A DNA stretch of 64,000 nt from the human T2T-CHM13v2.0 reference genome, Homo sapiens. The stretch lies in assembly GCF_009914755.1 (NCBI RefSeq), contig NC_060925.1; one strand, 5' to 3'. The notes beneath the pieces were generated by a model. The model was not told where the DNA came from. It saw nothing but the letters and a program-made list of their open reading frames with translations, and searched no databases. Position 1 is the stretch's first letter; the number at the start of each line of letters is the position of its first letter. Of the stretch, positions 33,629 to 35,040 are shown piece by piece. A program made the position numbers and the translations under genes.

Positions 33629-33994
33629 ATTAATTTATTAATTGCAACAATAAATTAATTAAATAATTAACCCTTCACCCAGCAGATGCCAGGCACTATC
33701 TGCAGAGGTCACACAAAGTCTCTGTGCACCAGTTCTCCCAGGCTAGAGGGGAGGGGGCCACACACAGAGAAAAATCACCAGAAGATTCTTCCTCATTACT
33801 AAGCATGTTGCCCAGTATCCAGGCCCTCATGAAGACTCTCATATACCTGGGACTCTCATGATGTCTTTATTTTGAATCACAAAGTGCTAAGACATGATCT
33901 CAGTCAATGCTGGTCTTGGGTGCTCCCAGAGGGTGTTCAATGGAATCAGTTGACACAAAAAAGAAAGAGGCAGAGGAATATAACCTATTATCAT

Positions 33995-34609
33995 TGTGGG
34001 CGGCAAGCTACTCTAGTGCTGCTTTTAAAAGTTTTTCTTTTAAATTCCTCAAAAATTTCAAAAAATCAGTAAAACACTACAGCACCAACTCTCCTTTTAT
34101 CTGTTCCACATTAAAAGCCCTAACAAAAAATAAACATTTAATGCCCTATAACTAAAAAATTTTAACAAAGTCAGTCTTATCTAAATCCCAATATTTACAA
34201 TTCAAAACTTAATAAGTTAATACTATCCAAAAACACATTCATCTTAATCAAAACTCTAATCCTCCAGTTAACGTTACAGTTAACCAGTTACTAAAAATAA
34301 GCCAATAAGCTACAATTCAAAACCAAACTATACTAAATAATAAAGTTATTAAACAACTACAAAAATATTACCTAAATAATTAAAATTAAATTCAAAATAA
34401 TAACAATATATACCCATCTTTTACAGCCATCAAACAAAAACAACATAAACTCTATTCAAACTTTATTACCCATCTCCAAAACACAACAGAAAAAAACTAT
34501 CCTTAATAGCCACAGCCAACAACTTATTATAAAATGTATAACTTATAAACAAACAAATCCAAACTGTCAAACAGCTACTCGCCCCGTTAAAAACAAAATT
34601 CCACCCACA
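33995..34609 (+). mobile_element. Highly deleted HERV-K-class (HML-6/LTR3-like) mini-provirus
   Basis: Begins TGTGGGCGGCAAGC, ends CCACCCACA (imperfect terminal inverted repeat, TG...CA); perfect TSD ATCAT at 33990-33994 and 34610-34614; interior is gag. Confidence 0.8.
34021..34606 (+). pseudogene. gag: G-to-A hypermutated betaretroviral gag capsid fragment
   Basis: Translation AFKSFSFKFLKNFKKSVKHYSTNSPF...MPYN*KILTKSVLSKSQYLQFKT**VN...NPPVNVTVNQLL...YPSFTAIKQKQHKLYSNFITHLQ..(+1 shift near 34490)..TYKQTNPNCQTATRPVKNKIP is colinear with HERV-K Gag CA (YGPNSPY..PYDWEILAKS.LS.SQFLQFKTWW..NPPVNI..DQLLG..PSF..VRQG..EPY.DFVARLQ..AYENANPECQ.AI.P.KGK.P). Confidence 0.92.
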
Positions 34610-34671
34610 ATCATGAGTGTTATCTGTAATTATTCCTGGTATATAGCCTCACAGTTTCAAGTGTCACATGC

Positions 34672-35040
34672 TGTATTATTCTGTTTTTATGCTGCTATAA
34701 AGGACTGCATGAGACTGGGTAATTTATAAAAGAAAGAGGTTTAGTCAACTCACAGTTCTGTATGGCTGGGAAGGCCTCAGGAAACTTACAATCACTGTGG
34801 AGGGGGAAGCAAACATATCCTTCTCCGCATGATGTCAGGAAGAAGAAGTGCCAAGCAAAAGGGGAAAAAGCCCCCATAAAACCATCAGATCTCAGGCGAA
34901 CTCACTATCATGAGAACAGCAGCATGAGGGTAACTGCCCCATGATTAGATTACCTCCCACTGAGTCCCTCCCACAACAAGTGGGGATTATGGGAACTACA
35001 ATTCAAGATGAGATTTGAGGGACACAGCCAAACCACATCA
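34672..35040 (-). mobile_element. Solo THE1D-like LTR
   Basis: TGTATTATTCTG...GACACAGCCAAACCACATCA; perfect TSD CATGC (34667-71, 35041-45). Confidence 0.92.

What the first reader, a model, noticed from the sequence alone, without database searches (positions are those of the whole stretch)
34021..34609. Near-saturating APOBEC3-type G-to-A hypermutation of the gag fragment
Seen (manual count): 26 G in 589 nt (~4%). Of these 25 are in GC or GT context, one is in GA (34489) and none is in GG. Every conserved Trp position reads TAA (34153, 34210, 34213, 34306, 34381). The major homology region (34429-34476) reads IKQKQHKLYSNFITHL versus the canonical VRQGxxEPYxDFxxRL; most changes are D>N, E>K, G>K/N/S, R>H/K, A>T and V>I, all explicable by G>A. 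Knowledge: APOBEC3G edits GG>AG and APOBEC3F/D/H/B edit GA>AA as read on the plus strand. Inference: both contexts are exhausted and some GC/GT sites appear hit too, implying extreme or multi-enzyme deamination. The G-rich LTR tip (TGTGGGCGGC) is spared, as expected for the region that becomes double-stranded first. Uracil-rich cDNA damage could also explain the large deletions, linking restriction to the mini-element structure.
Basis: partly seen in the sequence, partly recalled or inferred. Interest (0 to 1): 0.85.

Follow-up and report, generated by a model that had tools for sequence, protein, structure and literature searches.

The report
Heavily G-to-A edited retroviral gag fossil
A 615-base remnant of an ancient human endogenous retrovirus in which about four of every five G bases were turned into A, the scar of an antiviral DNA-editing enzyme; it is an unusually extreme example of a known kind of fossil.

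Summary
Window 34021-34609 holds 26 G in 589 nt (14 GT, 11 GC, 1 GA, 0 GG), the lowest G count in the window.

It is a gag capsid fragment (Pfam Gag_p24, E=2.8e-23). Eight related genomic copies carry 117-121 G over the same stretch. Copy-to-window G>A is 88-98, against A>G 2-6 and C>T 10-22. The copies are symmetric among themselves.

Nearly all GG (29-33 of 32-35) and GA (30-33 of 32-34) sites are edited, and about 57% of GC/GT sites. With purines collapsed the fragment is an ordinary family member.

The adjacent 25-nt LTR 5' tip is real and keeps 9 of 10 G. The element is flanked by ATCAT on both sides.

This is APOBEC3-type minus-strand cDNA hypermutation. The family is HERVK13/HML-4 with LTR13, not HML-6.

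Multi-enzyme editing and a link between uracil damage and the deletions remain untested.

It is a new, extreme member of a known kind. Interest is moderate.

The parts
33990..33994 (.). Left copy of the ATCAT direct repeat (putative target-site duplication)
   Evidence: Read directly. ATCAT occurs 76 times in the 64,000 bases, 0.0012 per base.
33995..34019 (+). 5' tip of an LTR13-type LTR, 25 nt; the last 3-8 nt overlap the junction with gag. Not hypermutated.
   Evidence: The 25-mer has 5 other genomic matches at 3 mismatches or fewer, against 0 for the reversed control. Each is the first 25 nt of a roughly 1-kb LTR that also flanks the related proviruses. 9 of 10 G are kept (8 of 9 against L019), against 23 of 118 in gag, p=1.2e-5.
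34017..34605 (+). gag capsid (CA/p24) fragment of a HERVK13/HML-4-type provirus with near-saturating G>A
   Evidence: 69-77% identical to 8 copies over the full fragment, and 92.4% to the chr9 copy once purines are collapsed. G>A is 88-98 of 135-182 differences.
34027..34398 (+). Match to the Pfam Gag_p24 N-terminal domain (residues 3-126 of the translation from 34021, stops read as X)
   Evidence: PF00607 E=2.8e-23, 82.7 bits. There are 9 stops in the best single frame against 0-4 in the copies (call 40f).
34429..34476 (+). Major homology region of CA, degraded
   Evidence: Translation. The chr9 copy matches Gag_p24_C (PF19317, E=4.8e-16) across this region.
34490..34490 (+). One extra base in an A run, absent from all 8 copies; it shifts the gag frame by +1 for the rest of the fragment
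   Evidence: Alignment column 476. The frame change is visible.
34606..34609 (+). CACA: possible last bases of the LTR (3' end ...CA). The evidence is weak.
   Evidence: Homology to gag stops at 34605 in all copies. The family's LTRs end in ...ACCCTACA. With the preceding CC the window reads CCCACA, the inverted complement of the 5' TGTGGG.
34610..34614 (.). Right copy of the ATCAT direct repeat
   Evidence: It lies directly after the terminal CA.

Best explanation
The stretch is the internal part of a 615-bp dead remnant (33995-34609) of a HERV-K13 (HML-4, LTR13) betaretrovirus-like provirus. It consists of 25 nt of the LTR 5' end, 589 nt of gag capsid coding sequence and at most a few bases of the LTR 3' end, flanked by a 5-bp direct repeat.

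During reverse transcription, a packaged or cytoplasmic single-strand-DNA cytidine deaminase of the APOBEC3 type converted C to U on the minus-strand cDNA. This fixed plus-strand G>A at about 97% of GG and GA sites and about 57% of GC/GT sites (roughly half after allowing for ordinary decay). The LTR tip, which lies next to the plus-strand primer site and becomes double-stranded first, escaped.

Shown: the direction of the changes, their strand bias, their context bias, their limits, and the identity of the pieces.

Inferred:
- the enzyme class;
- that editing came before integration;
- that such a degree of editing in gag, normally a low-editing region, means a very high deaminase dose or a long-lived single strand;
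- that the sharp step at the LTR/gag junction means the deletion joined the two pieces after editing.

The element has no present function.
For: 1. Direction and strand bias. Copy-to-window G>A is 88-98, against A>G 2-6, C>T 10-22 and T>C 11-22 in 8 of 8 pairwise comparisons. In the 28 copy-to-copy comparisons G>A is 3-22 and A>G 1-23, so those are symmetric.
2. Well-supported G columns. 89 window-A columns have G in at least 6 of the 8 copies, against 22 window-G columns of that kind.
3. Context. Edited/kept/other: GG 29-33 / 0-1 / 0-3; GA 30-33 / 1-3 / 0-2; GC 14-19 / 5-11 / 0-2; GT 10-17 / 9-12 / 0-3. GR against GY gives p=3.4e-5 to 1.4e-8. In the Hypermut-style contrast GRD is 43-49 of 45-55 and the control contexts 44-54 of 64-76, p=2.5e-5 to 0.01.
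4. Published criteria for edited and ultra-edited elements (at least 10 clustered G>A; at least 25 G>A forming the majority of mismatches; PMC4866542, sections read) are met. G>A makes up 52-70% of all differences, and the longest uninterrupted G>A runs are 9-16.
5. Nothing else is odd. With purines collapsed, identity to the chr9 copy rises from 76.9% to 92.4%, and the terminal branch is 0.039 against 0.047-0.053 for three other copies.
6. Limits. The flanking host DNA and the LTR tip have normal G content. Low editing just 3' of the PPT and in the LTR is published for HIV-1, as is editing that rises with time spent single-stranded; most GG/GA targets were more than 75% substituted after 26 h in vitro (PMC1635257, section 6).
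7. Product/substrate ratio (AA+AG)/(GA+GG) is 162 here against 1.41-1.55 in the copies.
Against: - About a third of the G>A changes (27-33 of 88-98) lie at GC/GT. APOBEC3G seldom touches these contexts in single-cycle infections (PMC3310730, passage).
- Because of saturation, the context contrast is weaker than in typical hypermutants, and the enzyme or enzymes cannot be named.
- The true parent copy is unknown. Non-G differences to the nearest copies are 8.1-9.9%, so perhaps 10% of the G>A is ordinary decay.
- No orthologous or empty site could be examined, since both flanks are unique. Editing before integration is therefore inferred and not shown.
- The flanking repeat is 5 bp, whereas solo LTRs of this family show 6-bp duplications.
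- The 3' LTR end is represented by only about 4 bases.
Confidence: 0.9

Rival explanations
1. Reverse-transcriptase misincorporation under a skewed dNTP pool (low dCTP) produced G>A during minus-strand synthesis, with no deaminase involved.
For: About half of the GC/GT sites are changed, a broader context than A3G or A3F usually show. The mechanism itself is recalled from the older hypermutation literature and comes from no call.
Against: The GR-over-GY preference is strong. The U3 tip would be copied from RNA under the same nucleotide pool, yet it keeps 9 of 10 G. That fits a model based on time spent single-stranded and does not fit a pool model.
Confidence: 0.04
2. The changes arose after integration by a strand-asymmetric process on chromosomal DNA, such as deamination of resected single-stranded DNA at a break (kataegis-like) or transcription-coupled damage.
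For: No ortholog or empty site was available to fix the timing.
Against: The edited tract starts and stops within a few bases of the ends of the retroviral internal fragment. The LTR tip and both host flanks are spared. About 80% of all G being changed is far denser than mutation clusters of that kind, as recalled. The tract is on the coding (plus) strand, as expected for cDNA editing.
Confidence: 0.03
3. It is a native property of the family or an assembly artefact.
For: None was found.
Against: All 8 copies have 117-121 G over the same stretch. Apart from G>A the fragment is an ordinary member of the family. C, T and the flanks are normal.
Confidence: 0.01

Closest known systems
Edited and 'ultra-edited' endogenous retroviruses (Knisbacher & Levanon 2016, PMC4866542; Ito et al. 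2020, PMC6955324)
   Same: Clustered, strand-biased G>A relative to unedited copies in the same genome, with GG/GA preference in primates (passages and section 8 read). The present element meets their stated thresholds.
   Different: The density is higher than in the record case quoted in their text: 88-98 G>A in 582-588 aligned bases, about 15-17 per 100, against 392 in 4,304, about 9 per 100. The element is very short. GC/GT sites are about half edited. Their supplementary lists could not be read, so this locus may already be listed there.
APOBEC3 traces in HERV-K(HML-2) proviruses (Esnault et al. 2008, PMC2531183, search listing and start of abstract only; Lee, Malim & Bieniasz 2008, recalled and not seen)
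   Same: A human betaretrovirus-like ERV bearing plus-strand G>A acquired before endogenisation.
   Different: A different HML group (HML-4, not HML-2). It is a fragment and not a full provirus. As recalled, the HML-2 cases are edited at a minority of GG sites, whereas here GG and GA are exhausted.
G>A hypermutated HIV-1 proviral DNA with editing gradients (Suspene et al. 2006, PMC1635257)
   Same: Editing falls in CC/TC contexts of the minus strand, is lowest just 3' of the PPT and PBS, leaves the LTR lightly edited, and scales with time spent single-stranded (section 6 read).
   Different: In that paper highly edited genomes are rare (4 of 30) and GC/AC minus-strand contexts are disfavoured. 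Here a region near the 5' end of the genome is almost saturated.
HERV-K13 / HML-4 proviruses with LTR13 (Vargiu et al. 2016, PMC4724089; preprint 10.1101/2025.11.08.687349)
   Same: The gag fragment's only genomic relatives are this small group, 11 other matches. The tip matches the first 25 nt of their roughly 1-kb LTR.
   Different: It lacks almost all of both LTRs, the PBS (a Lys-type PBS follows the LTR in the chr9 copy; the tRNA assignment is recalled), pro, pol and env.

Membership tests
APOBEC3-edited (ultra-edited) LTR retroelement | At least 25 G>A changes that form the majority of mismatches to an unedited copy from the same genome | tested here: met
   88-98 G>A, which is 52-70% of 135-182 differences, against each of 8 copies.
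APOBEC3-edited (ultra-edited) LTR retroelement | Clusters of at least 5 consecutive G>A mismatches, at least 10 clustered in total | tested here: met
   4-9 runs of 5 or more per comparison, holding 36-56 G>A; the longest run is 9-16.
APOBEC3-edited (ultra-edited) LTR retroelement | Strand bias: G>A far above C>T on the coding strand, and unidirectional (G>A far above A>G) | tested here: met
   G>A 88-98, C>T 10-22, A>G 2-6.
APOBEC3-edited (ultra-edited) LTR retroelement | Primate APOBEC3 context (GG and/or GA preferred over GC/GT) | tested here: met
   GR 60-65 edited against 1-3 kept; GY 27-33 edited against 16-22 kept; p=3.4e-5 to 1.4e-8.
APOBEC3-edited (ultra-edited) LTR retroelement | Editing occurred on cDNA before integration | not testable with these tools
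   This needs orthologous and empty sites in other primates. Both flanks are unique in this genome, and no primate genomes are held.
HERV-K13 / HML-4 (HERVK13-int with LTR13) | The internal sequence is closest to HERVK13 proviruses | tested here: met
   The whole-genome search gave 11 other matches. They include four on chr17 at 44.177-44.193 Mb, about 11 kb beyond the U2 array. That is the place where the preprint describes three ERVK13 proviruses with LTR13. One more is at the end of chr8, where the same preprint names a copy. The naming rests on that text and on no repeat library.
HERV-K13 / HML-4 (HERVK13-int with LTR13) | LTR of the LTR13 type | tested here: inconclusive
   Only 25 nt are present. 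They match 22 of 25 positions at the starts of roughly 1-kb LTRs that flank the related proviruses. No LTR13 reference sequence was available.
   All matches belong to the small group with roughly 1-kb LTRs. The count of 12 fits HML-4 (7+5 chains) and not HML-6 (17+48 chains) in PMC4724089. No HML-6 sequence was compared directly.
Integrase-made retroviral insertion | TG...CA termini and a target-site duplication of the family's length | tested here: inconclusive
   TGTGGG...CCCACA termini and a perfect ATCAT on both sides. That is 5 bp, whereas three of five solo LTRs show perfect 6-bp duplications. No empty site was available.

The most novel reading that the evidence does not exclude
The element may be a germline fossil of a cDNA that was both edited to near saturation and internally collapsed before integration. 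That would be physical evidence linking deaminase attack to breakage and rejoining of retroviral cDNA that kept only its integrase-bound ends.

Its unusual secondary pattern may record a deaminase, or a mix of deaminases, with a specificity unlike present-day human A3G and A3F. About half of GC/GT sites are edited. GYA is 9-12 edited against 1-2 kept, while other GY sites are about half edited. T is favoured at -1. One candidate is an A3D-like GC activity in an ancestral catarrhine.
Probability: 0.15. Interest if true: 0.6.

Novelty: new member of a known kind. Interest (0 to 1): 0.4.

Why it matters
The fragment shows how far deaminase restriction can go on a retrovirus that still reached the germ line. 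About 80% of well-supported G positions are changed in a genome region that is normally among the least edited.

Because GG and GA are exhausted, the remaining GC/GT sites expose the secondary preferences of the ancient enzyme or enzymes. Lightly edited fossils cannot show these.

The sharp boundary between the unedited LTR tip and the edited gag gives a rare handle on the order of two events, editing and deletion.

In practice, elements like this are only about 77% identical to their family and strongly A-rich, so they may escape repeat annotation. The purine-collapsed comparison used here recovers them at 92% identity.

The phenomenon itself is well known and genome-wide catalogues exist, so the gain is an extreme case and not a new principle.

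Tried and rejected
- Paralogous empty site. The left flank (33700-33994) has no other genomic match. The first 55-62 nt of the right flank are also unique before a high-copy repeat starts. The duplication therefore could not be checked this way.
- Further proviral pieces in the window. Plain blastn, and purine-collapsed blastn on both strands, against the chr9 provirus region found only 34017-34605; the other hits were low-complexity noise.
- Template switching during minus-strand synthesis as the origin of the LTR/gag junction. I judged this less likely, because gag would then lie about 25 nt from the plus-strand primer and should be little edited under the distance model of PMC1635257.
- An alternative junction through the shared AGCTAC. 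LTR positions 12-17 also occur about 20 nt upstream in gag. This reading needs more non-G>A changes than the 25-nt LTR reading, so I set it aside.
- Naming the family from chromosome bands in the literature returned only HML-2 papers.
- The supplements of PMC4866542 were listed but not readable or searchable; only 307 characters were searched.
- A search for HERVK13 together with APOBEC found 5 papers, none about editing of this family to judge by titles and abstracts.

Full report
**Observation.** Window 34021-34609 contains A 271, T 161, C 131 and G 26. The 26 G are followed by T (14), C (11) or A (1, at 34489), and never by G. No other 589-nt stretch of the window has fewer than 67 G (mean 133, sd 22). 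C (131) and T (161) are normal here, and A (271) exceeds the maximum elsewhere of 239. GC skew drops to -0.62 to -0.72 only across this stretch.

**What the sequence is.** Read with X at the stops, the stretch matches Pfam Gag_p24 (E=2.8e-23, residues 3-126). The homologous stretch of a chr9 copy matches Gag_p24 (2e-36) and Gag_p24_C (4.8e-16). A DNA search of the whole genome returned 12 places: the window itself and 11 others at 69-82% identity. Eight of those span the full fragment. The copies continue to be homologous to each other on both sides, whereas homology to the window stops at 34017 and 34605 in every one. The window therefore holds a fragment of CA only.

**Substitution spectrum.** I built no consensus. 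The window fragment was compared pairwise with each of the 8 natural copies in one MAFFT alignment of 592 columns with single-base gaps only.
- Copy-to-window changes: G>A 88-98, A>G 2-6, C>T 10-22, T>C 11-22, and each transversion class 0-9.
- In the 28 copy-to-copy comparisons G>A (3-22) and A>G (1-23) are balanced.
- The copies carry 117-121 G over this stretch, so the family is not natively G-poor.
- Among columns where at least 6 of 8 copies have G, 89 read A in the window and 22 read G.
- G>A makes up 52-70% of all differences, with uninterrupted G>A runs of up to 9-16.

**Context.** Contexts were read in the reference copy.

| Context | Edited to A | Kept as G |
|---|---|---|
| GG | 29-33 | 0-1 |
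| GA | 30-33 | 1-3 |
| GC | 14-19 | 5-11 |
| GT | 10-17 | 9-12 |

- GR against GY gives p=3.4e-5 to 1.4e-8 in 8 of 8 comparisons.
- A Hypermut-style contrast gives GRD 43-49 of 45-55 against control contexts 44-54 of 64-76, p=2.5e-5 to 0.01.
- The same table with the chr9 copy as query shows 2-7 G>A per context and no bias.
- Background transitions can be gauged from C>T, about 10-15 of about 125-131 C against the seven nearer copies. Roughly a tenth of the G>A may therefore be ordinary decay, which leaves about half of the GC/GT sites edited. This last figure is an inference.
- Within GY sites, those followed by A at +2 are 9-12 edited against 1-2 kept, while the other GY sites are about half edited. 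This gives p=0.007-0.05 in 7 of 8 comparisons and 0.3 in the eighth.
- T at -1 is favoured: 10-15 of 13-19 edited, against 4-8 of 10-15 for A at -1.

**Everything else is ordinary.**
- With G written as A in all sequences, identity to the chr9 copy rises from 76.9% to 92.4%.
- In a tree on that collapsed alignment the window copy sits inside the family. Its terminal branch is 0.039, against 0.047-0.053 for three other old copies.
- Divergence outside reference-G columns is 8.1-9.9% to seven copies. Divergence between copies is 2.2-14.3% when L011 is left out.
- One extra base at 34490 shifts the frame.
- There are 9 stops in the best single frame, against 0-4 in the copies (call 40f).

**The surrounding mini-element.**
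- *The 5' tip.* The 25 bases at 33995-34019 have five other genomic matches at 3 mismatches or fewer, and none for the reversed control. Each is the first 25 nt of a repeat of about 960-1,000 bp. That repeat also lies upstream of gag in the chr9 and chr1q copies, in the orientation and at the distance (about 1.6 kb) expected of a 5' LTR.
- *Family habits.* These LTRs end in ...ACCCTACA. Three of the five solo copies have perfect 6-bp duplications.
- *The window's ends.* The element reads ATCAT | TGTGGGCGGC ... CCACCCACA | ATCAT. ATCAT occurs at 0.0012 per base in the window, so a copy directly after a terminal CA, 4 nt beyond the end of gag homology, is unlikely to be chance.
- *Weaknesses.* The repeat is 5 bp and not 6, and the 3' LTR end is represented by only about 4 bases.
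- *Junctions.* Both junctions show 3-nt overlaps: TGC at the 5' junction and ACC/CC at the 3' junction.
- *Sparing of the tip.* The tip keeps 9 of 10 G, including 3 of 4 in GG context. The gag part keeps 23 of 118 (p=1.2e-5, call 40c).

**Family.**
- The chr17 matches (44,177,022-44,192,973) lie about 11 kb past the last unit of a 6.15-kb U2 snRNA array.
- A preprint (10.1101/2025.11.08.687349, passages read) describes exactly there, in this assembly, three ERVK13 proviruses with LTR13-family LTRs. It also names similar copies at ERVK13-1 and in the 3' UTR of C8orf33 at 8q24.3. The hits here include one at the end of chr8 and one on chr16.
- PMC4724089 (passages read) equates HML4 with HERVK13I/LTR13 (7 canonical and 5 non-canonical chains, about 10 copies) and HML6 with LTR3 (17+48 chains).
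- The family is therefore HERV-K13/HML-4 and not HML-6. This naming rests on positions and text, not on a repeat library.

**Mechanism.**
- Plus-strand G>A with GG/GA preference and no matching C>T is the published footprint of APOBEC3 editing of minus-strand cDNA in human ERVs (PMC4866542; PMC6955324).
[quoted passage not shown] Most GG/GA targets exceeded 75% substitution only after 26 h in vitro (PMC1635257, section 6).
- Sparing of the U3 tip fits this picture.
- CA lies only about 1.6 kb from the 5' LTR, in the low part of such a gradient. Near-saturation there implies a very high deaminase dose or a long-stalled single strand (inference).
- The step from 10% to about 80% editing across the LTR/gag junction implies that the two pieces were not neighbours when editing took place. 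The deletion therefore followed editing (inference).
- Whether the deletions happened in the cDNA or in the chromosome cannot be decided. Retention of just the two termini is more easily explained if the ends were selected by integration (inference, about even odds).
- A review states that A3G gives GG>AG, that A3B/DE/F/H give GA>AA, that A3DE also gives GC>AC, and that the enzyme behind GT>AT is unclear (PMC3549941, passage). GC and GT are seldom hit by A3G (PMC3310730, passage).
- The heavy GY editing is therefore atypical. At saturation I cannot separate one enzyme acting for a long time from several enzymes.

**Rivals.**
- A dNTP-pool bias would not spare the U3 tip.
- A chromosomal single-strand event would not stop at the ends of the retroviral insert.
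- A native bias or an artefact is excluded by the copies and by the collapsed comparison.

**Novelty.**
- Edited ERVs are catalogued genome-wide. 44 human ultra-edited elements are reported, and I could not read the lists.
- A search for HERVK13 with APOBEC gave 5 papers, none on editing of this family to judge by titles and abstracts.
- The density here, about 15-17 G>A per 100 bases, exceeds the record example quoted in that paper's text, about 9 per 100.
- I rate it a new and extreme member of a known kind.

**Left out.** The open question it addressed is answered in part by the unaltered comparisons: two of the natural copies have no stop and two have one stop over this stretch (call 40f), and the window fragment still matches Gag_p24 as it stands.

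Noticed in passing
L021 4498-5513 and 8219-9234 (chr1q copy of the family): Two LTR copies that are 96.9% identical over 1,016 bp lie in inverted orientation on either side of the gag region. This provirus is rearranged and is not a standard LTR-gag-pol-env-LTR structure.
   Followed up: no
L003 722-905 (chr9 copy, upstream part of gag): A 72-nt offset direct repeat, 88% identical over 112 nt, lies in the region between the LTR and CA. Similar repeats show up in other copies.
   Followed up: no
window 34665-34900: A high-copy interspersed repeat starts 55-62 nt to the right of the element: 4,776 first-look candidates, with the 40 scored matches mostly at 83-87% identity. The insertion site itself lies in unique DNA.
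   Followed up: partly
window 34024-34026: The first in-frame TGG of the fragment (present in 6 of 8 copies) reads TTT, which is two adjacent G>T changes and not G>A. It lies right next to the LTR/gag junction.
   Followed up: partly
window 34017-34605, GC/GT sites: There is a secondary editing preference. G-Y-A sites are almost all edited (9-12 against 1-2 kept) and T at -1 is favoured, while G-Y-C and G-Y-T sites are about 40-50% edited. The numbers are small.
   Followed up: partly
L007 (chr16:2,687,463-2,688,037 of the assembly): The preprint read places ERVK13-1 at 16q11.2. The only chr16 copy found here lies at 2.69 Mb on the short arm. As I recall it, ERVK13-1 is at 16p13.3. I did not check this.
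   Followed up: no
window 34021-34609: This stretch does not appear in the hub's list of the longest masked repeat stretches. The longest listed is 510 bp, so a masked stretch of 589 bp would have been listed. The edited fragment may be unmasked in NCBI's file.
   Followed up: no
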